From the IMG/VR virus record IMGVR_UViG_3300018080_000111: DNA of 64,000 bases; one strand, 5' to 3'. Below the pieces are notes generated by a model. It saw only the letters and a list, made by a program, of their open reading frames with translations, was not told the DNA's origin and did no database searches. The stretch comes from a virus (taxonomy: Duplodnaviria > Heunggongvirae > Uroviricota > Caudoviricetes). Of the stretch, positions 13,529-36,144 are shown piece after piece. The stretch's first letter is position 1, and every line of letters begins with the position of its first letter. Both the position numbers and the translations under genes were made by a program.

Positions 13529-13639
13529 TCTCCTTCTCCTCTACATAGTTACTACTTTCCTTTGAATTAAAACAAAAAACCCTTCCCCACTTTCATTTCT
13601 GAAAGAAACAACAAATGTTGCCAAAGGGTAATAATTGAC

Positions 13640-13727
13640 TCCTCCCTTGGATATGGCTGGGAGTAACAAAACATAATTTAACTTAACTAAACTTAACGAA
13701 ATGCAACAGAACTCAACTTAGTTCGAT
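13640..13727 (-). ncRNA. Pentamer array B (11 perfect RTT-NN units plus 2 degenerate) with 3' hairpin; putative gapped guide RNA
   Basis: Plus-strand units from 13663: gtaac aaaac ataat ttaac ttaac taaac ttaac gaaat gcaac agaac tcaac; 27 bp (13640-13666) identical to 27698-27724. Confidence 0.8.
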
Positions 13728-13730: not shown

Positions 13731-15695
13731 TTATTTCTGGGATTTTCGGAAAATGGATTTATACTTACTCGCCAAATCATTTCTTAAGGCCTCTTCCTTC
13801 TTTTCTTCAATTTTTTTCTTTCCACCCTTAATCGATCCTTCATCTACCCACCATAACCCCGAGAGAGGTTCTTCCTTCTTCTTTTCAAAGGCCTTTTTCA
13901 TTATATCTATATTTGGTGGGACTTTACATTCTTTCCGGGCCATCTCAACAGATACCACCACAGAGTCAGAACAGTCTTTGGATCCTTCTAAAACCAGTTC
14001 ATCCAGGCTTCCATCCTCTTTGGTAATAGATATGACCGCTTCCTTTGGATGATCTATCTTATTTGTATTGGGATCTTCTTCTAAGTGGGATAATTCAAAA
14101 TGCAGATAACCATGTCGATGACAAACCCAGCGACCATCTTTAACAAGATCATCCCTAAAACTTCGGTAATACTGGGGATTCTTATCAATAGATTCGTATT
14201 TACATTTAATTCCTGCTTTTTCAAGAATCTGGGTTGTGTCGGTACTTGCTAATTTGAGGTCAAAAGTGGCCAATGCTATATTAAACCCATAACTCTTCTT
14301 TAAAAGAATAAGAAATCTCCGTACTTTGGTTAAATCAATTTCATCATCTTCCGGGGCTTTAATTCTCATTACAAAATCTGTTTCTATGACTGGAACTTTA
14401 TCAACCCCAATACTTCCATCCTCCAAAGTTCTATTATTTTCCTTCCATCCAGAAACGCAGGACATTGCCAGTCCATATGCATCATGAGAAAAGGCGATGT
14501 CTCCATGAACATATCTTGGGATGTGCCGAGGAACCCTAATCTTATCCACATTTAGGAAATGAATTAATTCTTTTTCTTCCTCTTTCATCCCCAGATAAAT
14601 AGTGTTCATACTTACTGGATCTTCCTTTTTTGGGTCATAACAGTCCAATAGATATTTTTCGGATTTGAATAGTCGACTTTTCCTTAGGTAGCTGGCACTG
14701 ATACCTGCCAGGTCTCTTAACGCACCCGTGATGTCTTCTTGGAATGCTCTTCGAAAAACCTCGGGAACCTGTATAACTGTGAATCCGTTCGTAGTAGCTT
14801 CCTTTATCTCCTCTTTGGTTTCTATTATTTTAGACGGAGAATATATGTCGCCAATTCTGACTGGAAATTTGGAACAGCCCTCAAATTCCTTATCGTCAGC
14901 TTCCCATTTAGGAATATCAACAATATGGACGGCTTTATGTCCCTTTTTCTTTGCGATGAAAGCATTTACAAAGGATAGGTTTTCCTGCTTTGATGCGACA
15001 ATAAAGAATTTTCCTAAGGATTGTTCATTGATTACAAATCTATCCTCAAATCTACGAAGGGCAGACTCAACCGATTTAATTACTTTCTCCCTTTGTTTTA
15101 TTCCTGCCTTGGGGGAATCAACCTCATCCATAAGGGCTGCAATTACATCCTGGCCTAATTCTGCCTGTGAATAAGGGGAGGCAAGAATGTAATCAAATAG
15201 ATCAAAATGTATCTGAGGTTCCAAATTTCCTGAAATTCTTCCTTTGTTCCTAAACCACTCAGAGGATAGCAGATGGTTCTGGAGAACCCGGAATCCTTTA
15301 CTATCCCCTAGGGTTTTATTTAGGTTAAAAAAGACAATGGCCATTTTTCCGCCTGCCTGTTTGCGATAATATGCAAAAGGGTTACGTAAACAAAGGTGTA
15401 AATACATCACGAATGCTATCCCCAGAATAGCTGCACGGGATTTTCCTATTCCAATGGCACCAGTAAGGACGGGGAGGTATTTGGTGGGTTCACCCATTAG
15501 AAAGGATAGTTCTCTTCTCCACACAGGAAAGATGGCCTTTCCAGGAATCCCATCCTCATTCTTGGTAATTTTTCCTAAGAATTCCTCTCTTCGTAGAAAT
15601 TCCAAAAAGGAGACGGGGGTTTCCTTGTAATGTATTTTTGTGGTTGCTGACGTGAAGGTCGTTAACCAGCGTTGATCAGGATTCTTCTGGTTCAT
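13731..15695 (-). CDS. terL: Terminase large subunit
   Basis: Walker A VLTGAIGIGKS, Walker B ALMDEVD, RNase H-like HGDIAFSHDAYG and KDCSDSV. Confidence 0.85.
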   Translation of the reverse strand: MNQKNPDQRWLTTFTSATTKIHYKETPVSFLEFLRREEFLGKITKNEDGIPGKAIFPVWRRELSFLMGEPTKYLPVLTGAIGIGKSRAAILGIAFVMYLHLCLRNPFAYYRKQAGGKMAIVFFNLNKTLGDSKGFRVLQNHLLSSEWFRNKGRISGNLEPQIHFDLFDYILASPYSQAELGQDVIAALMDEVDSPKAGIKQREKVIKSVESALRRFEDRFVINEQSLGKFFIVASKQENLSFVNAFIAKKKGHKAVHIVDIPKWEADDKEFEGCSKFPVRIGDIYSPSKIIETKEEIKEATTNGFTVIQVPEVFRRAFQEDITGALRDLAGISASYLRKSRLFKSEKYLLDCYDPKKEDPVSMNTIYLGMKEEEKELIHFLNVDKIRVPRHIPRYVHGDIAFSHDAYGLAMSCVSGWKENNRTLEDGSIGVDKVPVIETDFVMRIKAPEDDEIDLTKVRRFLILLKKSYGFNIALATFDLKLASTDTTQILEKAGIKCKYESIDKNPQYYRSFRDDLVKDGRWVCHRHGYLHFELSHLEEDPNTNKIDHPKEAVISITKEDGSLDELVLEGSKDCSDSVVVSVEMARKECKVPPNIDIMKKAFEKKKEEPLSGLWWVDEGSIKGGKKKIEEKKEEALRNDLASKYKSIFRKSQK

Positions 15696-17250: not shown

Positions 17251-17621
17251 TAAATAATGTCCTTAATATATGTGGCCTTGTTCGTGGGTGTTTCCCATAA
17301 GTCTACCCTGTAGCAATGAGGTACCTTATGACAAATCCATCTTGCCAAATTTTCCGCGGTTGGGTTGTCAAAAGGAAATAGTTCCTCTCCGGATAATTCA
17401 TTAAAATTCTGATGGTCCAATACACCATGCACCATCCTTTTTATGATAGAGAAATCTATCAACATTCCTCGGTTCTCATCTATGATGGAGTCTTCTCCTC
17501 TACAGTAAATCTTTACTTTCCAGGAGTGTCCGTGAATTTTGTTGCACGGACTATTGTAAGGAAGATTTAAGTGATGAGCACCATTTATCTCTATATCTTT
17601 TTCGATTTCAAACATTTTCAA
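17250..17621 (-). CDS. queD: 6-carboxy-5,6,7,8-tetrahydropterin synthase
   Basis: GAHHL...CNKIHGHSW...LIDFS...LDHQNFN...PTAENLA...WETP. Confidence 0.92.
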   Translation of the reverse strand: MKMFEIEKDIEINGAHHLNLPYNSPCNKIHGHSWKVKIYCRGEDSIIDENRGMLIDFSIIKRMVHGVLDHQNFNELSGEELFPFDNPTAENLARWICHKVPHCYRVDLWETPTNKATYIKDII

Positions 17622-18174
17622 TTTCTCCTTCTTCTAATTCATAAATACTATCCAGGCATCGATATTTTTCACCCAATCCCATACCACAGCCCACTAGAAA
17701 ACCATTTCCTTCATATTCTAATCCAACCACATCTGGAAGCTCCTCTTCTGATTTCCACATCTGGATTTTTGGATTCACCTTTCTTACCAGGACCGCTGAA
17801 TGAATGGATTTAAATTGAGCCTCTTGTTTTATTATACTGATTGCTCTTACTAATGTTAGGCCGGAATCATAGACATCGTCAATAATCCAGCATTTTTTCC
17901 CTCGAGTCAATTTGGGATCAAGATCCAAAGGATAGGTGATTTTCACCTTTTCGGTGGTCTCGGTTCCATCCTCGTATGAGGATAATCCTAAAAATCCTTG
18001 AAAGATTCTGGATTTATTCTCCTCTCTAATGATATTTAACAGAGACTGGGTTGTAAAAACTCCCCCCTTTAATATACACACGAAGCAAGAATTTTCTAAC
18101 CCAATCCTTTTTATCTGTTCTACCATAGAAGATAGGATACGAGAAATATGTAAATTACCTGCAACTTTTATCAT
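17608..18174 (-). CDS. Purine phosphoribosyltransferase (HPRT-like)
   Basis: VCILKGG...LSSY...WIIDDVYDSGLTL (PRPP loop)...FLVGCGM. Confidence 0.85.
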   Translation of the reverse strand: MIKVAGNLHISRILSSMVEQIKRIGLENSCFVCILKGGVFTTQSLLNIIREENKSRIFQGFLGLSSYEDGTETTEKVKITYPLDLDPKLTRGKKCWIIDDVYDSGLTLVRAISIIKQEAQFKSIHSAVLVRKVNPKIQMWKSEEELPDVVGLEYEGNGFLVGCGMGLGEKYRCLDSIYELEEGEIENV

Positions 18175-18809
18175 AAGAGTCTCTCCACCCTACTGATGTC
18201 GCCTATTTTGGAAACAAGAAAGGACCGATCTAAACCTTCCCTATCAGATGCTTCCGCCAACTCTTTTTCATGAGTAATATAGATTATCTGAATTCCTAAC
18301 TCATCTGAAATATCCTTCATTAGTTGAGCCAGATAGATTAAGGTTTCCTTTCGGAGACACCGGAAGGGCTCATCCAGGAGGATAACCTTTTGAATATTCT
18401 TTTCTGAACTTTGGATTGCCAAAGAGACTATTCGGGAGGCAAATGAGATAACATCAACAATAGATCCTCCCTTCTCATCCTTGGGAGAGTACCGAACACC
18501 ATTCTCAACCACAAACATCTCCATTTCAGGCTGATTTCGGAAAACTCTACTTTCTAATTCAAAGGAGTATTCTTCACCAAAAATTACCTGCAAAGATTGA
18601 GTAATGAGTTCCTCAAAAATTTCCTTGGTTGCATCTTGAGCAATAACCGCTGCGACACTTACTATCTCTCTGGCCTCGGAAAGATCTTGTATCTTTGATT
18701 CCAATTCTTGAATATTCGAGAGGATCTTTTTTTGATCCTTCTCTAAAACCTTTTTTGAAGCCTTTATGTCGGACAGGAAGTCTTTATACTTTATCAGGCC
18801 ATTCGGCAT
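18171..18809 (-). CDS. Rad50/SbcC-like ATPase, C-terminal half
   Basis: Coiled coil, degenerate signature KGGSIVD, Walker B ILLDEPF, H-loop YITHE. Confidence 0.8.
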   Translation of the reverse strand: MPNGLIKYKDFLSDIKASKKVLEKDQKKILSNIQELESKIQDLSEAREIVSVAAVIAQDATKEIFEELITQSLQVIFGEEYSFELESRVFRNQPEMEMFVVENGVRYSPKDEKGGSIVDVISFASRIVSLAIQSSEKNIQKVILLDEPFRCLRKETLIYLAQLMKDISDELGIQIIYITHEKELAEASDREGLDRSFLVSKIGDISRVERLL

Positions 18810-18997
18810 AAAAATTCTCCCAGGTTTCAATTGCAAGAGCTATTACTTGTCTACTTCTCAATTTTCCACCAACCTTCTCAATCTTTTGATTAATACTGGA
18901 AAGAAAACTTTCCAGATCTGGGAGATCATCAAGATCCTGATCCCGGGTCTTTAGTCTTTAGTAGAATACTATTAGCTATCTGTTTCCAATGAATCAT
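18784..18997 (-). pseudogene. Small gene apparently broken by a 1-bp insertion
   Basis: MIHWKQIANSILLKTKDP then frameshift at CCGGGAT into QDLDDLPDLESFL...WPDKV; removing one G joins the frames. Confidence 0.35.
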
Positions 18998-19320
18998 TTA
19001 GATCCCTTCTATTTTTCAAGTAATTTTAATACGGGATTTGTTTTTTGTTCGCATAAATCCATATAAGGGATAATTCACCTCTATAGTGGACTCTGGATCA
19101 ATTTCCTCATATGACGTAAAATCTTCAATGGCCATATTATCTTCTCTCATATACGTCTATTCTAGTTCCTTCTTGATGAGTATTAGTATGAAAGACTATT
19201 GGCTCGTTTGGATTCAATATAACCCCATCTTCATCCATCGTTCCGTCGTCTTTTACTCCAAAGGTATGCCAGCATCGTGCACTACTTAATTTATCCTTTA
19301 CCAGAACAGCATATCCCGTT

Positions 19321-19584
19321 CTATTCAGCTGTCCGGGTTGTTTCTGCGGAGGATATGATTTTTTGGAGTTCCTGATCAATCTTTTCAAGTTCTTGAGTAT
19401 TCTCATGATTTATTGCCTCAAGTTCCTCTAAGTATGTTTTTGCTTCTTCTAGAGAGTCCACATCGTGGGTTTCTTTTAATTGTTTAAGTAATTGGTCTCT
19501 CTTCCCTGATCTACGCTCTTCCTCCTTCTGAATTTCCCGAATTTTCTTTTGTTTTTCTTTTACTTGTCGAATCAGATCACTCAT
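19321..19584 (-). CDS. Small coiled-coil protein in the Mre11/Rad50 cluster
   Basis: Charged heptad pattern; ATGA-type overlaps. Confidence 0.6.
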   Translation of the reverse strand: MSDLIRQVKEKQKKIREIQKEEERRSGKRDQLLKQLKETHDVDSLEEAKTYLEELEAINHENTQELEKIDQELQKIISSAETTRTAE

Positions 19585-19768
19585 TATTCAACTCCTCCTG
19601 AATACGACGAACTGGAATTAAATCAGATGTTGAAATACTACCATCTTCTTCTATTCCGGACATTCGTTGGGTTAGAGTCCACTCTAAAGCGGCTTTCCAT
19701 ACTTCATGTGCAGATAATTTCCCACTCTGCTCTAATCTATTAGTAAACCACGCTTGAAATGCTTTCAT
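19577..19768 (-). CDS. Hypothetical protein
   Basis: Coupled to both neighbours. Confidence 0.5.
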   Translation of the reverse strand: MKAFQAWFTNRLEQSGKLSAHEVWKAALEWTLTQRMSGIEEDGSISTSDLIPVRRIQEELNNE

Positions 19769-20718
19769 TTTTCAATTCCTTGGATCTCTTCCAGAACATC
19801 ATCAATTTCGTTTCGAACATCCTCGGAAGCTTCCTTTTCTTTAATTACCTCAAGGAGAATGTCAAAGCCCGTCTTTCCTCCATTTTTCCTAGAACCGATT
19901 CTACTTTTTAGCGCATCAATAAGTTTCTGACTGTTAATCTTATCTATCTTTTGGTCCCGGCAAAGATCAAAAACCCCTTCTATTGGATCACAGGTCAGTT
20001 CAAAAAATTCTACTTTTCCTGTTTCTGTATCAAAAGTAGCAACGGAAGGACGATGTTCCAAATCCCACTTTGAGATGGTCTTTCTTACTAAACATCCCGC
20101 ATTGATAATAGTCCTTCCTTGATACTCACTGCTGAAACGATAATGGTAGTCGCCACAAATCACTAAGTTATACTTCGGATTATTCCTCAAAAATTGATTT
20201 GGTTTTTGAAGTTCCTGTCCAGGAAAGAGGTCTCGATCACCTATCATTTTATGTATCACCAGGATATTATACTCATCTTCTTGTTCTGGATTAGGGATGG
20301 GCTCTCCATAACTCGCTCCATACAGGTTAACTTTCGTTTCATCGGTTATGGAATAAATTGGATGGGGATCACTGAGTAGAAGGGTTCCCACCCCGGATGC
20401 TTTTAGTACGGCCAAAGGACTATTTTTTAGGGTGTGCAAACTATGTCCACTAATGTCATGTTGTCCGGAGACAAAGAAAACCCCTTCTTCATACCAAAGT
20501 TCCTTACGTAAGAATCTAATGATCTCAGCTTTGATTTTGTTTGAAGAAGTATGGGTATCAAAGAAATCCCCAGGTTGAATGATGTAGTCACATTTCTCCT
20601 CCTTAAAGATAGAGAATGCTTCCCGAAATTTTCTCATTTGAGTCTCAAAGAAGTTGTCCTTCCTTCGACTTGGTCCACGAGAAGTAAAATGTAAATCTCC
20701 GAATATTCCTAATTTCAT
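19765..20718 (-). CDS. Mre11/SbcD-like nuclease
   Basis: GDLHF, PGDFFD, SGQHD, ICGDYH, INAGCL metallophosphoesterase motifs. Confidence 0.88.
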   Translation of the reverse strand: MKLGIFGDLHFTSRGPSRRKDNFFETQMRKFREAFSIFKEEKCDYIIQPGDFFDTHTSSNKIKAEIIRFLRKELWYEEGVFFVSGQHDISGHSLHTLKNSPLAVLKASGVGTLLLSDPHPIYSITDETKVNLYGASYGEPIPNPEQEDEYNILVIHKMIGDRDLFPGQELQKPNQFLRNNPKYNLVICGDYHYRFSSEYQGRTIINAGCLVRKTISKWDLEHRPSVATFDTETGKVEFFELTCDPIEGVFDLCRDQKIDKINSQKLIDALKSRIGSRKNGGKTGFDILLEVIKEKEASEDVRNEIDDVLEEIQGIEK

Positions 20719-20772
20719 CTGATTTTATTCTTCCACCATTTCGTTATTGATTGCTTTTTTAACATCTTCCCA

Positions 20773-20873
20773 CTCGAATTACATCGAATTTCCGGACTGC
20801 CCCAACGAACCGAATTGGAAGAGGAGGCTGTGTACTTCCTCGAATTACATCGAATTTCCGGACTGCCCCAACG
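20773..20873. repeat. Two exact 35-bp direct repeats separated by 31 bp
   Basis: CTCGAATTACATCGAATTTCCGGACTGCCCCAACG at 20773-20807 and 20839-20873. Confidence 0.9.
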
Positions 20874-20906
20874 GGAAGAACTGAGATAACTCTATTTAAT
20901 CTTTTC

Positions 20907-21416
20907 TTATTCATTCTTAAGTTCTTTTAACTTTTGATTCCCAAAGTAATTAACAACATCGTCCCAGGAGTAAGGATAAAAATTATTAGTATCTACTCCA
21001 ACATCTAGCTGGTCTTTGAATGGTCCCTTCCTTCCATGGGAATGGCCGAATAACTGCCAAGCCCCGTAATGGGATCTTTCCCATGTTCTCATACAGTAGT
21101 GGCAAACCACTACGAATTGTTGTTCTATACGTTTTCTCCACATAAATTTGGTCGAGTTCGGTAACCAATGGTCGTGTGATCCTTTTAAGAAGATATGATT
21201 TCCATTCAATTTGGATATATACTTTTTATGGGCTTCTCTTTCCTTTTTGCACCAGCAGAAGTCTCCGGCATGAACGGTAAGATCATTTTTACCAACTACC
21301 TCATTAAATCTGCGGATAAGTTCTTTATCCATCTCTTCTACTGATTCGAAGGGGCGATTACAGTATTTAATAATATTAGAATGTCCGTAATGCTCGTCTA
21401 CAGTAAAGAAAATCAT
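20907..21416 (-). CDS. Calcineurin-like metallophosphoesterase
   Basis: DEHYGH, HAGDF, KGSHD, CHY, FGHSH, DVGVD. Confidence 0.88.
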   Translation of the reverse strand: MIFFTVDEHYGHSNIIKYCNRPFESVEEMDKELIRRFNEVVGKNDLTVHAGDFCWCKKEREAHKKYISKLNGNHIFLKGSHDHWLPNSTKFMWRKRIEQQFVVVCHYCMRTWERSHYGAWQLFGHSHGRKGPFKDQLDVGVDTNNFYPYSWDDVVNYFGNQKLKELKNE

Positions 21417-21418
21417 AT

Positions 21419-21634
21419 TTATTTCTCGGTGTACTCAAATTGAATAACATCATCTGCTAAGTGTGCCATAAAATTGGGGGCATCGATGATAGCGTTGTCA
21501 CATTGTGTAATACATTCCCCGCTAAATTGCTCTTGTTCCGTAAACCAATCGATTACGGCTTCGAACACTTTGTTTTTCATCTCTTCGGAATCATCAAAAG
21601 AAAAAATACAATCTTCAAATTCTATTGTCCTCAT
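21419..21634 (-). CDS. Hypothetical protein
   Basis: Acidic 71-aa ORF coupled to neighbours. Confidence 0.55.
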   Translation of the reverse strand: MRTIEFEDCIFSFDDSEEMKNKVFEAVIDWFTEQEQFSGECITQCDNAIIDAPNFMAHLADDVIQFEYTEK

Positions 21635-22854
21635 TTATAGTTCTCCAATATTTTTCTCTTCTTTTCTTTTGAAAGATTCACGCTTTCACATAGCGGACAA
21701 ACTTCGATCTTATCCAGAAGATTAAAGAGTTCTTCTTGATTCTTTTCAATAAGCGGCTGAACTGGTTTTAAATCCTCTCTACCCAACTCAGAAATCAAAT
21801 TTCTTATTGATCGAATCTCCCCATCTGTATTATTATACTCAGATATCAATGTATCCGTTTCAATAATAAGATTTTCTGTTTTTTCCGGGAGTTCTAAAAT
21901 ATCCTTTAATATGGAAAGCTCCTGGATTAGGTTGGCTAAATTCTCTCTTTTTTGGTTCGATTTTGAAATAGAGTCTATTAAATCACCACATCTGGAAGAG
22001 GTTTTCTCGAAACCTTGGAATAGATCTTTTGGAAGAAGCTCTACTTCAAGTTCTGAAAGTTCGCCAATCTGAGTTCTCAATTCTCGGGTTATTGAAAACC
22101 CTTGAGTACATTTTTCACATTTTTCAACTGTAGAATCTAACATCTTCTCCAGATTTTCAGGAAGAACAATCCGATCTTTTTCTAATTGTTCCAGTTCCAT
22201 TATCATGGGTCGGATATTAGATATCATTCGGGAAACTTCATCTTTCTCCTTCTGGATGGATTCCATAGACTGAATTAGTTTTTCAATTTTATTGACATCT
22301 ATTTTTTGGAGTTTTGAAAGATTTTCCTCTACTTCTGATAGTCTTTTTCTCTCAGAAGACAATTCTGAATTTTTACTTGTAATCTTTCCTTTTAGAGCAG
22401 AGACGGCCTTGTCTAGAATATCCAGCCCAGAAATGCTTCGTATATGTTGTGCGACTTGTCCCGGAGGAGAAAGGACCAGGAAGGGCTGCTCCAACTGGGA
22501 TTGTATATTGACATCCTCTAAATTTAAGGCCTCTAATATGTCAGAGGGTGGATTAGCTCCAAAGGAGTCAAAAGGTTCTTCTATACCAGAAATCCGGTAC
22601 TCATTGGTTTTCTTTCCTCTTATTCTAGATATGGAATCGTTGTCCGACTCAATTTCAACAATAGCATCCCCATCCTGATTTTTTCGTATGAAGGAAGTGC
22701 CTAAAGGTCTATTATCTTTTACCCAGGTTACAGATCGAAAGATGGAGGTCTTTCCTGAATCATTCTCGCCGGTAATAGTATTGATTCCAGGACCAAAATC
22801 AAGAACGCTATCCTTATGTCCTTGGAAGTTTTTAAGTCGTAATTTTCGTATCAT
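21631..22854 (-). CDS. Rad50/SbcC-like ATPase, N-terminal half ending in Zn hook
   Basis: LRLKNFQGH, Walker A GENDSGKT, Q-loop IQSQLE, coiled coil, terminal CPLC. Confidence 0.85.
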   Translation of the reverse strand: MIRKLRLKNFQGHKDSVLDFGPGINTITGENDSGKTSIFRSVTWVKDNRPLGTSFIRKNQDGDAIVEIESDNDSISRIRGKKTNEYRISGIEEPFDSFGANPPSDILEALNLEDVNIQSQLEQPFLVLSPPGQVAQHIRSISGLDILDKAVSALKGKITSKNSELSSERKRLSEVEENLSKLQKIDVNKIEKLIQSMESIQKEKDEVSRMISNIRPMIMELEQLEKDRIVLPENLEKMLDSTVEKCEKCTQGFSITRELRTQIGELSELEVELLPKDLFQGFEKTSSRCGDLIDSISKSNQKRENLANLIQELSILKDILELPEKTENLIIETDTLISEYNNTDGEIRSIRNLISELGREDLKPVQPLIEKNQEELFNLLDKIEVCPLCESVNLSKEKKRKILENYK

Positions 22855-23092
22855 CTTCGGATTCTTTCAGAATATCCAAGACTTCTTCCATTGGAAGCGG
22901 ACAAGGAAGGACCATTCCGTTTGCTAAAAATAAACCAGTGCCGGTTTTCACTATGGGAGTTTCCCCATCACCACCTTTGAGGCCCGTATCTATGGGAATC
23001 TTGTCGAGCATAACAATATGATCCATATTGATTGGATTGTTCTTTGTATTCCCTTCCTTGGTCATTATGGGTAGTTTTTCAGTTAAGTTCAT
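22832..23092 (-). CDS. Hypothetical protein
   Basis: 86-aa ORF in operon. Confidence 0.55.
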   Translation of the reverse strand: MNLTEKLPIMTKEGNTKNNPINMDHIVMLDKIPIDTGLKGGDGETPIVKTGTGLFLANGMVLPCPLPMEEVLDILKESEDDTKITT

Positions 23093-23970
23093 TTTGATCC
23101 TTTCGTGAAAGGGAGAGTTTCAGAATAAAATCCAGAAGCCTTAGCATGGCCGCCACCACCGTATTTTCTCGCTATTTCAGCTACATCAACTCTTCCATCA
23201 GATCGAAGAGAAAATTTCCACATCTCACCATTAAAAACTGATGAAATGCACATATCATATTCGTTTATCCTATCACCAAACATTTCTGCTCCACATCCGG
23301 GGAAGATAAAATTGACAACAAAGCATTTATATCCCTCAAATTCTACTTCGTATCCATATTGTTCAAGTTGATCTTTACAGAGGTTGTCCCGGTAAGTTAA
23401 ACAAGTATGCCCCTGGTCTATAATAGTAGCTGTATCCGCGGCTTGTATTGTTGAGTTTGAATTGAGTAATGCATCCCAGATATCATTCTCCGGACCATGT
23501 TCATATAGTTTCAGTCCTTCATTAAAGGAAGCAGTATTATCTCCATAGACCCACTTCCAAGCGTCCCTATCCCCAATTAATTTTATTGCTGCAGGCATCT
23601 CCTGAGCCGGATATAGGGAGTTCCAAACAAGTTCACATCCAGAATATTTGCTTCCAGGCTCAAGGATGCAGACAACGTTAGGTGGATAATTTTTGGATAC
23701 CTCTGGAGTCGTTTTGTGGTGATCGTAAACGAAGACCCGGGTAGTCCGTGCACAAATTAGTTCCATAATTTCAGGTTTAAAATGGAAGTCAACTATGTAT
23801 ACTACTTCATTGGGTTCAATGGAATCTATCTCTTCCTGTAAGGAATCCTGTATATCGTAGTCCACTTCTACGAATCTTCGTTTTGTGGAAGGGAAGTTTT
23901 CTTTAATGTATTTAGCTACGATGGCCGCGGCGGATCTACCATCCGCATCATTGTGATGAAAACAGAGCAT
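23089..23970 (-). CDS. DHH/DHHA1 phosphoesterase
   Basis: HNDADG, IVDF, YDHH, GGGGHAKASGF. Confidence 0.88.
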   Translation of the reverse strand: MLCFHHNDADGRSAAAIVAKYIKENFPSTKRRFVEVDYDIQDSLQEEIDSIEPNEVVYIVDFHFKPEIMELICARTTRVFVYDHHKTTPEVSKNYPPNVVCILEPGSKYSGCELVWNSLYPAQEMPAAIKLIGDRDAWKWVYGDNTASFNEGLKLYEHGPENDIWDALLNSNSTIQAADTATIIDQGHTCLTYRDNLCKDQLEQYGYEVEFEGYKCFVVNFIFPGCGAEMFGDRINEYDMCISSVFNGEMWKFSLRSDGRVDVAEIARKYGGGGHAKASGFYSETLPFTKGSK

Positions 23971-23973
23971 TTT

Positions 23974-24222
23974 TTATCCTTTCATAGAGCAATCATTTTC
24001 TGGAACATTTAAATCGGACTTCCATTTTATAAAAATAAGTGCCGATGTTTTATCATCTTCTCCACCTAAGGCCTCCTTGGCCACCTCTTCAATATTCTTA
24101 AATCTCCTTTTGTAGGACTTCATATCCTTTTCATATTCATTGGCACACACGAAGAAGCCAACAAGAAGCCCAAAGATTGCACAACAAAAGGAACACGCGA
24201 TTAATTCAGCTGACATCTTCAT
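23974..24222 (-). CDS. Small membrane protein
   Basis: N-terminal TM segment. Confidence 0.5.
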   Translation of the reverse strand: MKMSAELIACSFCCAIFGLLVGFFVCANEYEKDMKSYKRRFKNIEEVAKEALGGEDDKTSALIFIKWKSDLNVPENDCSMKG

Positions 24223-24449
24223 TCTCCAACAGAATTGTTTGTTGTACCCTTTTCAACGATGACATCTTCTACTTCTTCGAATACATCTTTTCCCTTGTTT
24301 GTTCCTGTCTTTTGTAAATTTAATTTATTTACTTGTTCAGAAGTCAAATCTATGGTCACCGTTCTTTTTCTAATAGGAATGGTTTGACCCGTATATTGGG
24401 CATGAAGTATTGGTCCCCAGGTATCTGCTATGATGAATGTTAATTTCAT
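24219..24449 (-). CDS. Hypothetical protein
   Basis: 76-aa ORF after GGAG. Confidence 0.55.
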   Translation of the reverse strand: MKLTFIIADTWGPILHAQYTGQTIPIRKRTVTIDLTSEQVNKLNLQKTGTNKGKDVFEEVEDVIVEKGTTNNSVGE

Positions 24450-24450
24450 T

Positions 24451-24837
24451 TTATCTCTCCAGTAGCAAAGTGGGGAGTTCTTCTCCAGATAAAACTCTCA
24501 AATAAGATAGAAATTCTCTGGTTGGGTCAGACCCCAAAAATAGTTGGAGGAATATCCTCTCAATATCTTCTAGAGTACCTTTTCGATCCTCTAAAGTAAC
24601 CTAAATATGGTAGTGAGGGTGTCCTGATTGGGATTGTTTAATTTCAAAATCTATCGGAAGAAATTGGTTTAAATACTCTGCTCTTTCCTCAAAGAGCTGC
24701 ATTTGTTCTTCCGTGTCAATATCCAAAAGGAGTTCAGTATCCTTAGGATAGACGACTTTTAATCCTTTTTCTTCGGCCTCTTTAATTGCGGACATGCGAT
24801 CAATATCATAATTAATCGTCTCTTTGTTTAGTTTCAT
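24451..24837 (-). pseudogene. Phage gene interrupted by one in-frame TAG at 24601-24603
   Basis: Frame continues after the stop: HYHI*VTLEDRKGTLEDIERIFLQLFLGSDPTREFLSYLRVLSGEELPTLLLER, ending 2 bp before the next start. Confidence 0.7.
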
Positions 24838-25355
24838 GCCATTTGCCCTAAACTGGATCTTCTGATCCATTCGGCAATTAATAGGGCATCACTTCTTCCA
24901 TCCTTCTTCCCTCCTCTAGGTCCCCTTAATTCTGCGGAGGGGAATAATCTTTCGGCGATCATTAGACTCTGTGCCTTCTTATCCCCTTTCGATTTTGTAA
25001 TTTGAAATTCCTTTTGCCAAGTTTTTGGAATGACTAACTCATATGGTATATTCAATCCTACCAGGAGGCCCTCAAAAATACCCTGACATAATCCTAGACC
25101 AAAGGTGGCCTGTATCCGGATTCCCGGGGGTAGGCTCTGCATTTTTTCGAGTGCGACGGTAACTTTTGTGGGTCCTATATCAGAAAAGTTCATAAGAATA
25201 TTTCTAATTGCCGGGATATCGTATTCTCGTTTCTTTTTCTTCCCTTTTGTAAATTCTATAATGGGAGTGTCGTATATCCATATATGTTTTCCTTGTTCAT
25301 CGACAACTCCGATTGCTCCCTGAAGTCCTGGATCAATTCCAATGTATAGACTCAT
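24834..25355 (-). CDS. ruvC: RuvC-like Holliday junction resolvase
   Basis: YIGIDPG, VALEK, FGLG, WQK, DGRSDALLIA. Confidence 0.85.
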   Translation of the reverse strand: MSLYIGIDPGLQGAIGVVDEQGKHIWIYDTPIIEFTKGKKKKREYDIPAIRNILMNFSDIGPTKVTVALEKMQSLPPGIRIQATFGLGLCQGIFEGLLVGLNIPYELVIPKTWQKEFQITKSKGDKKAQSLMIAERLFPSAELRGPRGGKKDGRSDALLIAEWIRRSSLGQMA

Positions 25356-25624
25356 TCTAGTCCATTCCTCTCTTCCAGCAACTTCCTCAGATATGAATTC
25401 TCTCGACGAGTCGCCTCAAGGTCGAAGAGTTGATACTTAATACATACCCTCAGATGATCCAGGGAATCCTGTAGACTGCTGATACTCTTTTCAAGCTTTG
25501 CTCTATTGGCTTTTGCCTGTTTGGCAAGTTGAACTAATTTCTTGTGTTGTGGATCAGTAGATCCTGAGGATTCTTCAATTAATTTGTCCAGTTGTTCTTT
25601 AAGATCGTTTTCATTCATTACCAT
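25352..25624 (-). CDS. Coiled-coil hypothetical protein
   Basis: Coupled to recA and ruvC. Confidence 0.6.
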   Translation of the reverse strand: MVMNENDLKEQLDKLIEESSGSTDPQHKKLVQLAKQAKANRAKLEKSISSLQDSLDHLRVCIKYQLFDLEATRRENSYLRKLLEERNGLE

Positions 25625-26685
25625 ACCCTCGCTTTTCTCTTCTCAGTTTTATGAAGTTCTTGCCAGGTTTTCCAGATTTCTTCACGAAGTTCTTTCTCCT
25701 TATTATTTTCTTCAATATATTGAATCCACTCTACTCGAGTTTTTTCTTCATCAAATATTTTTATTGTGGTTGTTTTATTCTTTGCTTTTTGATCTCCATT
25801 TTGGAGAATATTAAGAAATTGGATATTTGTGGAGATGTCATCTAGGCCATAGGAGAATAAGATTCGGAATCTTCCTTCTTTGAATGGGGGGGCAACCTTG
25901 TTCTTCGTAATCTTGAATTTTACCCAGATTCCAATTGGGCTTCCTTCCTTGTTTTTAATCCCTGAAAGGTGCTTAAGATGTATTTGAATTGAACTATAAA
26001 ATTCCAGAGCTCTTCCACCGGAGGTAACCTCTTTGTTCGCCGAAAAAGGTCCTGCTCCGATATTATCGCGAGTTTGATCTATACAAAATAGAGTTGTATT
26101 GCTTTCCGCAAGAGCAAATAAATACTTTCGGAATCCTTTGGACATCTGTTTGGCTCTGGAGGTTCCGTACGTCCCGTCCATCATACTTTCTTCCAATTCG
26201 ACCTGGGTGGGCAACGCGCTGACACTGTCAACTACTACTATTTTCGATTCTCTGTTTAGAGGATCCTTCTTTTTGATTTGTCCAGTAGGAGTCTTATTAT
26301 AGATGATATCTGAAAGATATACATCAAAAAACTCCTCTAGGGTGGAAGGATGTCCAACAATCACTTTATCACAATCTAGTCCATATAAGGATGCAAAATG
26401 AGGATCCAAAGTATGTTCTATATCAGCATAATATGCTTTTTTTCCAGAACGTTGGGCATATCCACAAACCATTGTTGCTAAGACGGATTTAGAAGTACTT
26501 CCTCCCCCAAAGACGTGGACTATTCTACCAACCGGAATACCACCCGGATATTGGTTTGCAAGAGCTATATCTAGAGTCGTACATCCGGTAGAAAAGAAAT
26601 TGCGGACTCCCGGAAGTCCAATAATATCTGAGGATTGTTTTGCAGTCTCTTTAATCGTATCTTCTATTTTTTCATTTTTAGACAT
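25618..26685 (-). CDS. recA: RecA/UvsX-like recombinase
   Basis: STGCTTLDIAL, GIPVGRIVHVFGGGSTSKS, VVVDSVSAL, SGGRALEFYSS, KNKVAPPF; start set at MSKNEK. Confidence 0.92.
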   Translation of the reverse strand: MSKNEKIEDTIKETAKQSSDIIGLPGVRNFFSTGCTTLDIALANQYPGGIPVGRIVHVFGGGSTSKSVLATMVCGYAQRSGKKAYYADIEHTLDPHFASLYGLDCDKVIVGHPSTLEEFFDVYLSDIIYNKTPTGQIKKKDPLNRESKIVVVDSVSALPTQVELEESMMDGTYGTSRAKQMSKGFRKYLFALAESNTTLFCIDQTRDNIGAGPFSANKEVTSGGRALEFYSSIQIHLKHLSGIKNKEGSPIGIWVKFKITKNKVAPPFKEGRFRILFSYGLDDISTNIQFLNILQNGDQKAKNKTTTIKIFDEEKTRVEWIQYIEENNKEKELREEIWKTWQELHKTEKRKARVW

Positions 26686-27262
26686 TTTTATCCACCATCC
26701 TCTCAACTGAAAATCTTCCAAAAGTTCCACAGGAAGGTGCACCTGGCCTCCAATGACCTATTCCAATAAATTCACCAGCAACCTGCAAATGTTCCAAAAC
26801 AATTTGTTCATTTAGGGCCCCAGCAATTGTAGGATAAACCACTGTAAGAGTTCCTTCCCATTTAGGGATCTTTGGGTATCTTCTTGAAATCCTTCCTCCA
26901 TCTGGTTTTCCATTAGAGGAGACAAAAGATTTTCTTCCTTGAATTGTATCTTTGGTAAGTTCGGTAACTATATCTCCCTCAATTTGTATCAATCTAATAT
27001 AATGGACTAAACCTTTTCCTCTTTTTCCTCCTCCTACTCTTTTTCCTAAAAGTTTGGCAGCAGGCTCCAGAGTTCTCTTTAGAAGAAAACCTGGGATGAT
27101 TACCTTTCCATCCTCATTGTAATGGGCTCTTTCCTTCCAATACCTCTCTTCAAATTGTTGAGGGGTTTCACCCTCTTCTTTTTCCTGATCGATGTATTGA
27201 TCAAACAGAACAGGACTGATACTTTTAAACTTTATTTTGATTCGTTTAACTAATTCATCCAT
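26678..27262 (-). CDS. Stand-alone RAMP/Cas7-like protein (Vipr-like), putative guide-binding filament subunit
   Basis: N-terminal IKFKSISPVLF, IIPGFLLKRTL (cf. iPGSslKG of Csm3/Cas7 RAMPs), C-terminal Gly-rich loop GEFIGIGHWRP...GTFGRFSVE; no other cas genes in the window. Confidence 0.72.
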   Translation of the reverse strand: MDELVKRIKIKFKSISPVLFDQYIDQEKEEGETPQQFEERYWKERAHYNEDGKVIIPGFLLKRTLEPAAKLLGKRVGGGKRGKGLVHYIRLIQIEGDIVTELTKDTIQGRKSFVSSNGKPDGGRISRRYPKIPKWEGTLTVVYPTIAGALNEQIVLEHLQVAGEFIGIGHWRPGAPSCGTFGRFSVERMVDKNV

Positions 27263-27698
27263 CTTTCTTCTCACTGTAAAAGGCAAATTTCAATAACTTC
27301 TTGAATTCTTTATCTTCTTTCTCTTTCAAACAACTATTCATTAAAGGAAGGAAACTAACCCCATTCTCTTTACAAATAAAGGACTTCTTCTTATCCCTTG
27401 CCATTTGTTTCCTATCCGTAAGATGCTGGAATCCTCCTGGCTCTATTGCACATACTAACTTTCCGTGTCGGAATACTGAAATGTCAATATGTGCATTTTT
27501 GTTCTTCCAGAAACTCTTGTATTTAGATGGCTCAGGAAAGAGTTCATATAGAGGCTGTTTTACAACAAAAGCCAGTTTTGGAAAACTTCGTTGTAGCCAA
27601 CAAACGAACTCCTCAATTGTTTTATTATCCGAATACATAAAGTAAAACCCCGACCAAGCATAATAATATGCAAGCACAATCGCTATCGGAAAATACAT
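27255..27698 (-). CDS. PD-(D/E)XK-like endonuclease (DUF559/DUF2726-like)
   Basis: HIDISV...AIEPGGFQH...QMARDKKKSFICKENGV; the SD is the 3' arm of the array hairpin; the stop overlaps the RAMP gene start. Confidence 0.55.
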   Translation of the reverse strand: MYFPIAIVLAYYYAWSGFYFMYSDNKTIEEFVCWLQRSFPKLAFVVKQPLYELFPEPSKYKSFWKNKNAHIDISVFRHGKLVCAIEPGGFQHLTDRKQMARDKKKSFICKENGVSFLPLMNSCLKEKEDKEFKKLLKFAFYSEKKDG

Positions 27699-27800
27699 CC
27701 TCCCTTGGATATGGCTGGGAGTAATAAAATGGAACGGAACGCAACACAACTTAACTTAATTTAAAACAATGCAACTTAACAAAACTTAATTCAACATAAT
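27698..27800 (-). ncRNA. Pentamer array A (16 RTT-NN units) with 3' hairpin; putative gapped guide RNA
   Basis: 27721-27800 parses exactly into 16 NN-AAY units on the plus strand (one unit ttaaa), followed on the minus strand by the CTCCC-N12-GGGAG hairpin shared with array B. Confidence 0.85.
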
Positions 27801-28324
27801 TAGAAATCATTTTCCAGATTCCTTTCCTCTTCTACTTCTCTTTCAAAGGACTTATCGAGTTCTCTTTCCTCCCCTAATAAACTCTGGTTCCCGTAATATT
27901 TATGAACAAACAAAGATACTAAACTTTGCAGCATACTCTTTCTTTGTCCCATACTATCTACTAGGATGGAGAAACCATCAGCTACTTTTGAAACCTCAAT
28001 AAGATCCCTTTTAGCCTCCTGATACGATTCTTGAATTGTTAAGGTTTCATTCACCGCGTCATTCGTTACTTTTCCCATAAGCCCAAATTCTTCTGGATTC
28101 CTTCGGATTCTTGATTTGAGATCAGCCTCCAAAAAATCTAGAGTATCTTTTGCCCTTTTTGCCAAGGATTTAGCAAGAGTGGATAACTCCCCAATTTCAT
28201 GATAAAGTTGCGGTTGTCTTCGACAAGCCTCATCAAGTTCATGAGCATTAATAGGAAGATTGGCTTTACACTCCTGTAAGGACTCTTGTAAATCATTTAA
28301 TTCGGATTCAAGTTCTTGATTCAT
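27800..28324 (-). CDS. UvsY-like recombination mediator
   Basis: Helical protein (INAHELDEACRRQPQLY...KVTNDAVNE) lying between SSB and recA. Confidence 0.6.
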   Translation of the reverse strand: MNQELESELNDLQESLQECKANLPINAHELDEACRRQPQLYHEIGELSTLAKSLAKRAKDTLDFLEADLKSRIRRNPEEFGLMGKVTNDAVNETLTIQESYQEAKRDLIEVSKVADGFSILVDSMGQRKSMLQSLVSLFVHKYYGNQSLLGEERELDKSFEREVEEERNLENDF

Positions 28325-28339
28325 ATTAATTCTCCAAAG

Positions 28340-28771
28340 TCAAAGGATACAAATCACAAATGCTATAAAAGCAATGAGCGTTAGAAGTACTCCCCCGATA
28401 CAAAATAGGCCGACTTCCGATTTTAAGAATTCATGAACCATGGATCTTTCCAGAGTATCCAATTTTTCCATCATTGGAAATCTTTCAAGATCCTCGGAAA
28501 CCGCATCTTCTACCATGGAATCCCATTCCATTTCTTCTGGAGTTTTTCCTCTCAAAAATTCTCCTGGAAAGAATCCTTCATCTAAATCCGCATCGGTTCT
28601 ACTCATTGCTTCGTAACATTCTTCGTGCATGTAGTCCGCATTAAAATCACCATCAAACGTATATACCCGATAGCGTGCTTTGGTTCCACTTTCAATCTTT
28701 TCGTCGCACCAAATACATTGATGATCCTTCCTTGTCTTAACCCACTTACTTTGGATTTCTTCAAAGGACAT
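28340..28771 (-). CDS. Hypothetical Zn-binding protein with C-terminal TM segment
   Basis: KTRKDHQCIWC...HEEC; hydrophobic tail. Confidence 0.55.
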   Translation of the reverse strand: MSFEEIQSKWVKTRKDHQCIWCDEKIESGTKARYRVYTFDGDFNADYMHEECYEAMSRTDADLDEGFFPGEFLRGKTPEEMEWDSMVEDAVSEDLERFPMMEKLDTLERSMVHEFLKSEVGLFCIGGVLLTLIAFIAFVICIL

Positions 28772-36135: not shown

Positions 36136-36144
36136 TTTAGTCCT

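What the first reader, a model, noticed from the sequence alone, without database searches (positions are those of the whole stretch)
25618..27800. Putative RNA-guided system: RAMP-like protein + nuclease + pentamer guide array read through a gapped NN-skip code (VIPR-like)
Seen in the sequence (minus strand): 16 RTT-NN pentamers, then a conserved hairpin, a PD-(D/E)XK-like gene, a 194-aa protein with RAMP/Cas7 hallmarks (KSISP, IPGxxLK, C-terminal Gly loop GIGHWRP...GRF), then recA; the three genes are translationally coupled. No CRISPR array or other cas genes are present. Known: RAMPs polymerise along guide RNAs at a fixed nucleotide step. From memory, recently reported phage VIPR systems pair a single RAMP with RNAs of alternating constant trinucleotide and variable dinucleotide, reported as GGY-NN; here the constant unit is RTT. 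Inference: each subunit grips RUU and displays NN for pairing, so this is a variant clade with a possible dedicated nuclease.
Basis: partly seen in the sequence, partly recalled or inferred. Interest (0 to 1): 0.95.

Follow-up and report, generated by a model that had tools for sequence, protein, structure and literature searches.

The report
Phage VIPR system with RUU-NN guides
A large uncultured phage carries a VIPR system (a CRISPR-like RNA-guided DNA reader first described in 2026) whose guide RNAs use R-U-U instead of the published G-G-pyrimidine, and whose guides spell genes of sibling phages that lie next to the guides' own insertion sites.

Summary
On the minus strand, 27721-27800 holds 16 five-base units (15 RTT-NN, 1 TTT-NN), followed by a 23-nt hairpin. 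A second array of 11 units with the identical hairpin lies at 13641-13717.

The 194-aa protein is a Vipr. Its model's best AlphaFold DB matches include all five published Vipr seed proteins, and its profile finds the solved SUSP1 Vipr. The 127-aa gene has a DUF2726 / restriction-endonuclease-like fold and sits beside vipr in all 14 related loci long enough to show both genes. recA is only a neighbour.

In total, 25 distinct arrays from related metagenomic phages share the layout RTT-NN (10-19 units), then RTTAC, then a hairpin that co-varies, then GG.

The NN pairs mirror codon positions 1-2. Under the published one-base-skip rule, guide B matches 20/20 a sibling phage's copy of the gene just upstream of array B. 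That sibling has no array at that site, and the window's own copy matches only 15/20. Guide A spells a conserved recA motif.

Verdict: a new variant of a known kind. The scan has already noted a GTT-NN VIPR in another genome. A homing-like, poison-antidote role is possible but unproven. Expression could not be tested.

The parts
27721..27800 (-). vrRNA A repeat tract: 16 pentamers (15 RTT-NN, 1 TTT-NN). The last unit is the constant ATTAC. It starts right after the stop codon of the upstream 174-aa gene.
27699..27721 (-). vrRNA A tail: hairpin CTCCC / 12-nt loop / GGGAG, then G. Identical to the tail of array B.
27255..27638 (-). vap-like accessory gene, 127 aa, with a DUF2726 / restriction-endonuclease-like fold. 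Invariant residues include H50, D52, E66, H72, D75 and D82. A possible N-terminal extension reaches 27698. Its stop overlaps the vipr start by 8 nt.
26678..27262 (-). vipr: 194-aa single-RRM RAMP with G-loop GIGHWRPGAPSCGTFGRF. Its stop overlaps the recA-like start by 8 nt.
13663..13717 (-). vrRNA B repeat tract: 11 RTT-NN units, the last being GTTAC. It lies 14 kb from vipr, in the gap between the 654-aa gene and the next gene.
13641..13663 (-). vrRNA B tail hairpin, identical to that of array A.
13568..13629 (-). Predicted branched stem followed by a U-run, downstream of vrRNA B. A possible terminator, from a fold prediction only.
13750..13778 (-). The window's own copy of the guide-B site (codons DLASKYKSIF of the 654-aa gene). 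It matches the guide at 15/20. The Leu and Ser codons are in the other six-fold codon family. The sibling phage's copy matches 20/20.
25880..25926 (-). The window's own recA-like site (WVKFKITKNKVAPPF) that resembles guide A at 24/32. Sibling phages' recA sites match at 26-27/32.
25618..26685 (-). RecA/UvsX-like recombinase. A neighbour, not a conserved part of the module. Its gene family is the predicted target of guide A.

Best explanation
This is a phage-borne VIPR system of a divergent clade. It consists of vipr (26678-27262), a nuclease-fold accessory gene (27255-27638), and two guide RNAs. vrRNA A lies at 27699-27800, directly upstream of the accessory gene. vrRNA B lies at 13641-13717, away from the protein genes.

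Each guide is a run of RUU-NN pentamers closed by RUUAC, a hairpin and GG.

By homology with SUSP1 VIPR, one Vipr protomer binds each pentamer. The protomers hide the constant RUU and present the NN pairs. The NN pairs then pair with DNA while skipping every third base, so the guide reads codon positions 1-2 and ignores the wobble position.

The predicted targets are genes of sibling phages. Guide B reads the 3' end of the sibling's copy of the 654-aa gene that flanks array B. Guide A reads the conserved KNKVAPPF region of recA-like genes. The phage's own copies are mismatched.

Shown here: the protein folds, the repeat architecture, its conservation, the tail covariation and the sequence matches. 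Inferred: transcription of the arrays, RNP assembly, DNA binding, and whether the outcome is silencing or cutting.
For: Protein.
- The AF2 model has pLDDT 88.6.
- All of the top 50 PDB Foldseek hits are Cas7-type RAMPs.
- AFDB ranks 1, 2, 3, 5 and 6 are X1U2U4, A0A0F9A1L0, A0A661D0E2, A0A1F4YLN4 and A0A2D6XG06. These are the five Vipr seeds named in the paper's methods. The best has E 5.5e-12 and TM 0.74/0.80.
- The clade profile's best PDB sequence hit is 'SUSP1 Vipr protein', 36pp_D, E 7.9e-7.
- BLASTP against SUSP2 Vipr gives E 4e-8.

RNA.
- There are 25 distinct arrays on the gene strand in the window and in relatives' loci, with 332 internal units.
- Position 1 is G 70% / A 28%. Position 2 is T 98%. 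Position 3 is T 100%. Positions 4 and 5 carry about 0.1 bit each.
- Arrays have 10-19 units, and the last unit is RTTAC in 24 of 25.
- A stem of 4 bp or more starts right after RTTAC in 23 of 25 tails. My reading of the table gives at least 9 different compensatory stems. GG follows in 20 of the 23. Only 16.5% of shuffled tails give such a stem.

Accessory gene.
- It is adjacent to vipr in 14 of 14 loci long enough to show both genes, in either order.

Code.
- NN composition correlates with sense codon positions 1-2 (r 0.85). Every other model gives 0.42 or less.
- Among the 17 guides with 13 or more variable units, 4 score z >= 3 with a one-base skip. None do with a skip of 0 or 2.
- Guide B has 2 exact 20/20 hits in IMG/VR with skip 1 and 0 hits with skip 0 or 2.
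- Both hits lie in frame in the homologous gene of a syntenic sibling phage.

Context.
- The window is a phage replication module with all genes on one strand.
Against: - No RNA data exist for this phage, so transcription, processing and binding of the arrays are untested.
- The constant motif is not the defining GGY.
- Guide A has no perfect target. The best are 26-27/32, and 18 of those positions are a widely conserved recA motif.
- The window's own genes match the guides at 68-77%, and the tolerance of this clade for mismatches is unknown.
- The skip rule rests on a handful of strong matches in a small, partly biased sequence set.
- Eight exact guide-B hits in prokaryote genomes look like chance. 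This shows that AT-rich patterns can match at random in very large databases.
- The host is unknown.
Confidence: 0.85

Rival explanations
1. RNA-guided homing or poison-antidote drive. This concerns the mode of action and sits within the VIPR reading. Each leading guide targets the un-recoded or empty allele beside its own insertion site in co-infecting sibling phages. The nuclease-fold Vap cuts or blocks that allele. Recombination then replaces it with the donor's allele together with the linked guide cassette.
For: - Guide B matches 20/20 a site 15 nt before the stop codon of the flanking gene in sibling G001. In G001 the next gene starts 18 nt after that stop, with no array. The window has a 202-nt gap there that carries array B, and its own site matches only 15/20.
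- The L013 guide matches its own upstream gene at 27/36. It matches the syntenic VIPR-less relative L065 at 31/36, z 10.7.
- Seven of 24 arrays match their own upstream flank within 423 nt at p <= 0.04 under skip 1. The figures are 1 of 24 under skip 0 and 0 of 24 under skip 2.
- Eight of 37 mismatched units at the phages' own sites are Leu/Ser/Arg codon-family switches.
- The accessory gene has a nuclease fold.
- The cassette sits among the recA-like and RuvC-like genes.
Against: - No cleavage, conversion or mobility data exist.
- Only two filled/empty pairs were found.
- Second and third arrays in multi-array loci show no flank match.
- Linkage of a guide with a resistant allele can also arise under plain silencing.
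- Two further guide searches in IMG/VR found nothing.
- Published VIPRs silence transcription.
Confidence: 0.28
2. Plain VIPR silencing of sibling phages, as in SUSP1. The RNP binds the rival's DNA and blocks transcription. Vap is a DNA-binding helper and does not cut. The closeness of targets to arrays is hitch-hiking.
For: - The published mechanism is repression.
- Lower self-match than non-self match has been reported for solo vrRNAs.
- The targets lie in conserved coding motifs and are wobble-aligned, as published.
Against: - The accessory protein has a restriction-endonuclease-like fold with invariant acidic and His residues.
- The significant flank matches are hard to explain by chance.
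Confidence: 0.45
3. Self-regulation. The guides bind the phage's own flanking genes with partial complementarity, to time their expression.
For: The phage's own flanks match at 68-85%, which is significantly above shuffled guides.
Against: - Where relatives are available they match better than self: 20/20 against 15/20, and 31/36 against 27/36.
- The published study found no self-targeting at 80% or more.
Confidence: 0.08
4. The arrays are not guide RNAs. They are DNA-level repeats such as iterons, bent DNA or packaging signals, and they sit next to a RAMP-like gene by chance.
For: No expression data exist. The repeat tract has no predicted structure of its own.
Against: - The arrays are strand-specific.
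- They always lie beside vipr and vap in relatives.
- The free positions follow codon composition.
- There are exact gapped matches to sibling genes.
- The tail hairpin co-varies, as a structured RNA would.
Confidence: 0.03

Closest known systems
VIPR systems (Vipr + vap + vrRNA). The type II exemplars are Escherichia phage SUSP1/SUSP2 and a Pseudomonas fulva prophage. Sources: bioRxiv 10.64898/2026.04.26.720920, .720927 and 10.64898/2026.10.15.759431.
   Same: - A single-RRM RAMP of about 190 aa with a G-loop ending WRP...GRF.
- A small adjacent accessory gene.
- Guides of 10-19 pentamers with three constrained and two free bases, followed by a constant structured 3' tail.
- Carried by a phage.
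- Wobble-aligned targets with a one-base skip, in genes of rival mobile elements.
- Guides placed away from the protein genes.
- Self-match lower than non-self match.
   Different: - The constant is R-U-U, not G-G-Y. In the published register, G2 has become U at about 100% and G1 is relaxed to a purine.
- The G-loop reads GHWRP, with a 6-residue insert, where SUSP2 reads GDWRP. The Asp is the G1 contact in SUSP1.
- The tail is a simple hairpin, and no pseudoknot was seen.
- The accessory gene has a DUF2726 / restriction-endonuclease-like fold and usually lies upstream of vipr. The paper says nuclease-type vaps occur only in the cell-borne types III and V.
- The leading guides resemble the gene next to their own insertion site.
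Non-canonical VIPR repeat clusters (bioRxiv 10.64898/2026.10.21.760802)
   Same: The preprint reports 21 clusters of 5-nt arrays beside Vipr-like folds whose fixed trinucleotide is not GGY. This establishes that the constant motif can vary.
   Different: The motifs named in the text are GAC, CAC, WGT and TGH. RTT, GTT and ATT do not occur in the text. The full list (Fig. S10A) could not be read, so RTT may or may not be among them. That preprint gives no targets or accessory genes for such clusters.
Cas7-family backbone subunits of class 1 CRISPR effectors (type VII Cas7, type III Csm3)
   Same: The fold (Foldseek E 5e-9 to 1e-5), and polymerisation along a guide RNA at a fixed step.
   Different: There is no CRISPR repeat-spacer array and no other cas gene was seen. 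The step is 5 nt with only 2 bases exposed. The element is phage-borne.
Phage homing endonucleases and marker exclusion (for example T4 seg/mob genes, I-TevI). The comparison is by function only and rests on my own knowledge.
   Same: The target is the sibling's allele close to the element's own insertion site. The phage's own allele is protected by sequence differences. A nuclease-fold gene is linked. The setting is a T4-like replication and recombination module.
   Different: Recognition would be by a programmable RNA rather than by the protein. No cleavage or gene conversion has been shown.

Membership tests
VIPR | Vipr protein: a minimal RAMP (RRM core, glycine-rich loop, thumb) related to the published Viprs | tested here: met
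   The model has pLDDT 88.6. All five published seed accessions are among the top six AFDB cluster hits. The profile hits solved SUSP1 Vipr 36pp_D at E 7.9e-7. BLASTP against SUSP2 Vipr gives E 4e-8.
VIPR | Tandem 5-nt repeats with a constrained trinucleotide alternating with a hypervariable dinucleotide, about 9-16 units | tested here: met
   The window has arrays of 16 and 11 units. There are 25 arrays and 332 internal units in the clade. Information content is 1.0, 1.85, 1.97, 0.12 and 0.08 bits at positions 1-5.
VIPR | The constant trinucleotide is GGY (canonical definition) | tested here: not met
   The constant is RTT: G 70% / A 28%, T 98%, T 100%. The papers allow 'a related consensus' and report non-GGY clusters, so this marks a variant and does not exclude membership. 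A neighbouring protein clade (P0040, locus L150) uses GGT-NN.
VIPR | An invariable, structured 3' tail after the repeat tract | tested here: met
   The two window arrays have an identical 23-nt hairpin. In the clade, a stem starts right after RTTAC in 23 of 25 tails, with many compensatory stem sequences and GG after it.
VIPR | An adjacent accessory gene (vap) with a DNA-related fold | tested here: met
   A homologue lies beside vipr in 14 of 14 informative loci. It has a DUF2726 / restriction-endonuclease-like fold. Whether it equals one of vap1-6 could not be checked.
VIPR | No CRISPR array or further cas genes; viral genome context | tested here: met
   No interspaced repeat family in the window apart from the two arrays. 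Phage replication genes throughout. No relatives in 185,579 prokaryote genomes.
VIPR | Targets read with a one-base skip, wobble-aligned | tested here: met
   Computational evidence only: the NN-to-codon composition match, the skip-rule contrast, and in-frame matches in long ORFs.
VIPR | vrRNAs are expressed and co-purify with Vipr; the RNP binds dsDNA and represses transcription | not testable with these tools
   No RNA run holds this sequence. This needs bench work.
CRISPR-Cas class 1 (type III / VII) | A repeat-spacer array plus a multi-subunit cas operon | tested here: not met
   There is no CRISPR-like array. The PADLOC scan of the two proteins gave no cas hit at or below E 0.001. Only a single RAMP gene was identified.
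Homing endonuclease-like mobile element (by function) | The target is the cognate empty allele next to the insertion site, and the element's own allele is immune | tested here: inconclusive
   Seen in two filled/empty pairs: window against G001, and L013 against L065. Own-flank matches are significant for 7 of 24 arrays. Cleavage and conversion are untested.

The most novel reading that the evidence does not exclude
The RUU-NN vrRNA cassettes act as RNA-guided homing or poison-antidote elements. Each leading guide is aimed at the sibling phage's allele of the gene beside the cassette's own insertion site. The phage's own allele is recoded, partly through the only synonymous changes a wobble-blind guide can see (Leu, Ser and Arg codon-family switches). 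The restriction-endonuclease-fold Vap would cut or stall the rival allele, so that recombination spreads the cassette together with its resistant flank.
Probability: 0.27. Interest if true: 0.85.

Novelty: new variant of a known kind. Interest (0 to 1): 0.62.

Why it matters
VIPR is months old and has been characterised mainly for GGY-NN guides.

This clade shows that the constant trinucleotide can be changed to RUU while the pentamer step, the 3' handle and the one-base-skip reading appear to be kept. A neighbouring protein clade still uses GGU. That gives a natural pair for working out how Vipr reads its constant bases, and perhaps for building orthogonal VIPR tools.

It also places a nuclease-fold accessory gene in a phage-borne VIPR. 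The founding paper saw nucleases only in cell-borne types.

The link between a guide's target and its own insertion site suggests a selfish, homing-like logic. If true, it would connect RNA-guided recognition with the marker-exclusion biology of T4-like phages, and it bears on how new guides arise.

Tried and rejected
- Expression. No RNA holder is listed for the locus. Laying contigs of three DNA runs gave only short identical fragments and no informative joint at either array.
- No whole genome is held for the window.
- Rfam found nothing in 13000-28500.
- Promoter and terminator scans found nothing convincing near the arrays.
- Self-targeting in the window. There is no site at 80% or more. 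The best is guide A at 24/32 in the phage's own recA-like gene.
- Perfect target for guide A. The 5' half pattern gave one unrelated hit, 23/32 in an SbcC-like gene. The 3' half equals the common recA motif and hit more than 120 contigs.
- Guide B in prokaryote genomes. Eight scattered exact hits, several with in-frame stops and no common gene. I judge these to be chance.
- Exact-target scans for the L001 and L004 guides in IMG/VR gave 0 hits.
- Idea that the G-loop residue aligned with SUSP1 D177 sets the constant base. Rejected as a simple rule. That position is H in this clade, D in SUSP2 and R in L150, and L150 still uses GGT-NN. It is highly variable across relatives.
- recA as part of the module. 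Rejected, because the gene next to vipr differs in relatives.
- PADLOC. No meaningful hit.
- Vipr-Vap complex prediction: weak support only.
  - Score 0.39, against a best control of 0.01.
  - The pass mark was reached by 58 of 80 solved complexes and by 2 of 110 mismatched pairs. Passes at 0.60 or under were rare among true pairs (7 of 80) and included both false passes.
  - The runs agree in at least 86% of contacts, and the partner's pLDDT is at least 84.
  - I do not rest any claim on this result.
Full report
WHAT IS THERE

Read on the minus strand, the gap after the 174-aa gene (27800-28324) holds 16 consecutive pentamers at 27721-27800. Fifteen are RTT-NN and one is TTT-NN, and the last unit is ATTAC. 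A 23-nt hairpin follows directly (CTCCC, 12-nt loop, GGGAG, G) at 27699-27721.

It has 11 RTT-NN units at 13663-13717, ends in GTTAC, and is followed by exactly the same 23 nt at 13641-13663. By chance, 0 matches to that 23-mer are expected. In 100 third-order Markov simulations the longest RTT-NN run was 4, against observed runs of 7, 8 and 11. Both arrays lie on the strand that carries every gene of the window.

THE GENES

Downstream of array A come three genes:
- a 127-aa gene (27255-27638);
- a 194-aa gene (26678-27262);
- a RecA/UvsX-like gene (25618-26685; PF00154, E 4.8e-47).

The 194-aa protein has no Pfam hit, but it has 27 close metagenomic homologues. Its AlphaFold2 model is confident (pLDDT 88.6, pTM 0.83). 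Against the PDB, all of the top 50 Foldseek hits are Cas7-type RAMP subunits, such as type VII Cas7 (E 5e-9) and Csm3.

Against AlphaFold DB clusters, ranks 1, 2, 3, 5 and 6 are X1U2U4 (E 5.5e-12, TM 0.74/0.80), A0A0F9A1L0, A0A661D0E2, A0A1F4YLN4 and A0A2D6XG06. These are exactly the five proteins that the VIPR discovery paper names as its founding hits.

At the sequence level:
- the clade profile's best PDB match is 'SUSP1 Vipr protein', 36pp_D, E 7.9e-7;
- BLASTP against the SUSP2 Vipr gives 25% identity over 161 residues, E 4e-8.

The protein is therefore a Vipr.

The 127-aa protein has 16 homologues and a confident model (pLDDT 89.9). Most of its AlphaFold DB matches are DUF2726 domains (E down to 6e-6, TM up to 0.78). 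Pfam gives DUF2726 at E 4e-4, below the curated cut-off. The weak PDB matches are almost all restriction-endonuclease-like folds, including BstEII, McrC, TnsA and Hjc. Invariant residues include H50, D52, E66, H72, D75 and D82. That this is an active nuclease is my inference.

THE MODULE IN RELATIVES

I fetched loci for relatives from several metagenomes and from IMG/VR. In all 14 loci long enough to show both genes, the 127-aa homologue lies next to vipr. The order is vap-vipr in close relatives and vipr-vap in three more distant ones. The other neighbour varies (GP88, thymidylate synthase, radical SAM), so recA is not part of the module.

Every locus with enough flanking sequence carries RTT-NN arrays on the gene strand, from one to six per locus. 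Locus L018 has six in tandem.

Across 25 distinct arrays and 332 internal units:
- position 1 is G 70% / A 28%;
- position 2 is T 98%;
- position 3 is T 100%;
- positions 4 and 5 carry 0.12 and 0.08 bits;
- arrays have 10-19 units;
- the last unit is RTTAC in 24 of 25.

A stem of 4 bp or more begins immediately after RTTAC in 23 of 25 tails. Reading the table, I count at least nine different compensatory stem sequences, for example TGCC/GGCA, CGCC/GGCG, CCAC/GTGG, CGTC/GACG, TCCT/AGGA and TCCC/GGGA. Many have UUCG loops. GG follows the stem in 20 of the 23. Only 16.5% of shuffled tails give such a stem. This is the published vrRNA layout: a repeat tract plus an invariable structured tail.

As positive controls, the same scripts recover GGT-NN arrays beside SUSP2 vipr and GGC-NN arrays in mycobacteriophage Quico.

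A more distant relative in the family is P0040 at locus L150. It uses GGT-NN, so RUU is a derived trait of this clade.

HOW THE CONSTANT MOTIF DIFFERS

In the published register G1-G2-Y3-N-N, this clade has R-U-U-N-N. Y3 is kept as U, G1 is relaxed to a purine, and G2 has become U.

The SUSP1 structure paper assigns contacts as follows:
- G1 to H17 and D177;
- G2 to R138 and W178;
- Y3 to R179 and neighbouring residues.

In the alignment with SUSP2, the G-loop GVGDWRP corresponds to GIGHWRP here. His is invariant in the clade, and a 6-residue insert follows. I tested whether this residue alone sets the motif, and it does not. The GGU-using L150 protein has Arg at that position, and the position is highly variable across the family.

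THE CODE AND THE TARGETS

The NN dinucleotide frequencies of 325 units correlate with sense codon positions 1-2 of the window's own genes (Pearson 0.85, Spearman 0.75). They correlate far less with any other codon phase, with the antisense strand, or with bulk dinucleotides (0.42 or less). This fits guides that copy the sense strand of coding DNA at positions 1-2. Such guides would pair with the template DNA strand and could not pair with the mRNA.

Guide B was written with a one-base skip and 20 specified bases, and searched against IMG/VR:
- skip 1: two exact matches;
- skip 0: no matches;
- skip 2: no matches.

Both matches are in frame (DLASKYKNIF), 15 nt before the stop codon of the homologue of the 654-aa gene. 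In the window, that gene lies directly upstream of array B.

The contig that carries one of these matches, G001 (37.6 kb), is a syntenic sibling of this phage, with 45-75% amino-acid identity over 25 genes. In G001 the next gene starts 18 nt after the stop, with no array. The window has 202 nt there, which hold array B, its hairpin and a possible terminator.

The window's own site matches the guide at only 15/20. Two of its three differing codons are Leu and Ser switched to the other six-fold codon family. These are synonymous changes that alter positions 1-2.

Guide A spells (I/M)(D/E)KFKAVKNKVAPPF. The matches are:
- the window's own recA-like gene at 25880-25926: 24/32;
- G001's recA: 26/32;
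- other phage recA genes: 26-27/32, all in frame.

No perfect target was found for guide A.

G001 also lacks the array-vap-vipr cassette upstream of recA and has a 61-codon ORF there instead. It carries its own array and a truncated vap downstream of its RuvC-like gene. No vipr was found in the 24%-complete fragment. This resembles the published VIPR-null phages that carry solo guides.

Among the 17 guides with 13 or more variable units, searched against 1.2 Mb of held phage DNA, four exceed every shuffled guide under skip 1 (z 4.8, 4.9, 6.4 and 10.7). None do so under skip 0 or 2. The database was enriched for recA contigs through guide A's pattern, so only three of these four are unbiased. 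The best matches sit in frame in long ORFs.

A PATTERN NOT FOUND IN THE PAPERS I READ

For 7 of 24 arrays, the best skip-1 match in the 1.5 kb upstream on the same strand is significant against shuffled guides (p 0.002-0.04). All of these matches lie within 423 nt of the array. The figures are 1 of 24 under skip 0 and 0 of 24 under skip 2.

The L013 guide matches its own upstream gene at 27/36. It matches the same gene of L065 at 31/36. L065 is a syntenic relative with no array, vap or vipr at that site.

Leading guides therefore resemble the gene beside their own insertion site, and they match a cassette-less sibling better than they match self. Of the 37 mismatched units at the phages' own sites, 8 are Leu, Ser or Arg family switches.

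This is the logic of a homing element or a poison-antidote pair. With a nuclease-fold Vap, and a position among the recA-like and RuvC-like genes, an RNA-guided homing or marker-exclusion role is conceivable. I put it at about one in four. Plain silencing of siblings, with the guide and the resistant allele linked, explains the same data.

The word 'homing' does not occur in either the discovery paper or the competition paper. Lower self-match than non-self match has been reported for solo vrRNAs.

WHAT IS KNOWN AND WHAT IS NEW

VIPR, its pentamer guides, the one-base skip, wobble alignment, solo guides and sibling targeting are all in 2026 preprints. A further preprint reports 21 clusters with non-GGY motifs, naming GAC, CAC, WGT and TGH. 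RTT, GTT and ATT are not in its text, and its full list could not be read. The alternative repeats listed in the discovery paper all keep G: NNNGG, YNNNG and NNNNG.

This scan has already noted a GTT-NN VIPR in another genome (e1-5384696). I did not check that note.

What this locus may add:
- the RUU clade defined by 25 arrays with a hairpin handle;
- a phage-borne nuclease-fold accessory gene, where the discovery paper found nucleases only in the cell-borne types III and V;
- the tie between a guide's target and its own insertion site.

LIMITS

- No expression or binding data exist.
- The host is unknown, and no relative occurs in 185,579 prokaryote genomes.
- The source is a sediment metagenome. 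Identical fragments occur in two other studies' runs.
- The Vipr-Vap complex prediction gave only weak support: score 0.39 against a best control of 0.01. The mark was reached by 58 of 80 solved complexes and 2 of 110 mismatched pairs, but passes this low are more often wrong than right. The runs agree in at least 86% of contacts, and the partner's pLDDT is at least 84.

Noticed in passing
L024 / G001 (IMGVR_UViG_3300013133_000021), G001 coordinates 9435-10735 and 24065-25215: In the sibling phage, the homologues of the 654-aa gene and of the clamp-loader gene are each interrupted by about 1.1-1.3 kb that is absent from the window. The first stays one open 1093-aa frame. These are candidate inteins or homing-endonuclease insertions.
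   Followed up: no
L018:454-939: Six RTT-NN guides lie in tandem upstream of vipr, each closed by GTTAC plus a CGTC/GACG hairpin. This is a multi-guide array in the RUU clade.
   Followed up: partly
L001:6001-6111 (protein P0012): The public gene call for this Vipr homologue starts 37 codons too early. The extra N-terminal residues are a translation of a guide array.
   Followed up: partly
window 27639-27698 (-): An in-frame ATG right after the array-A hairpin would add a hydrophobic 20-residue N-terminus (MYFPIAIVLAYYY...) to the 127-aa protein. A similar PIAI.LAY stretch follows the hairpin in L004. Whether this is protein or RNA conservation is undecided.
   Followed up: no
window 20773-20807 and 20839-20873: An exact 35-nt direct repeat, 66 nt apart, unexplained. 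The source run's contigs break near 20802-20868.
   Followed up: no
window 53306-53382 and 53762-53838: A 77-nt direct repeat (87% identity), 456 nt apart, around the start of the helicase-like gene at 52263-53747.
   Followed up: no
window 4781-4811, 6189-6219, 44955-44985: Three copies of an AT-rich 31-nt motif. On the gene strand it reads ...TATAATTTAAATATAAGAAGAG. It may be a phage promoter or regulatory box.
   Followed up: no
L016 / L017 (one 172,614-bp contig, positions 36018-42560 and 122596-129138): The same vipr-vap locus occurs twice, about 86.6 kb apart on one contig, which suggests a concatemer-type assembly. Its arrays are degenerate and have register shifts.
   Followed up: no
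L009 (Mycobacterium phage Quico 37300-37540): A long GGC-NN array lies upstream of gp57, a Vipr-like protein next to the Cro/Ant region. Many related mycobacteriophages gave the same weak protein hit.
   Followed up: partly
window 5073-5157 (-): A tRNA-Ser (anticodon TGA) gene in the phage.
   Followed up: no
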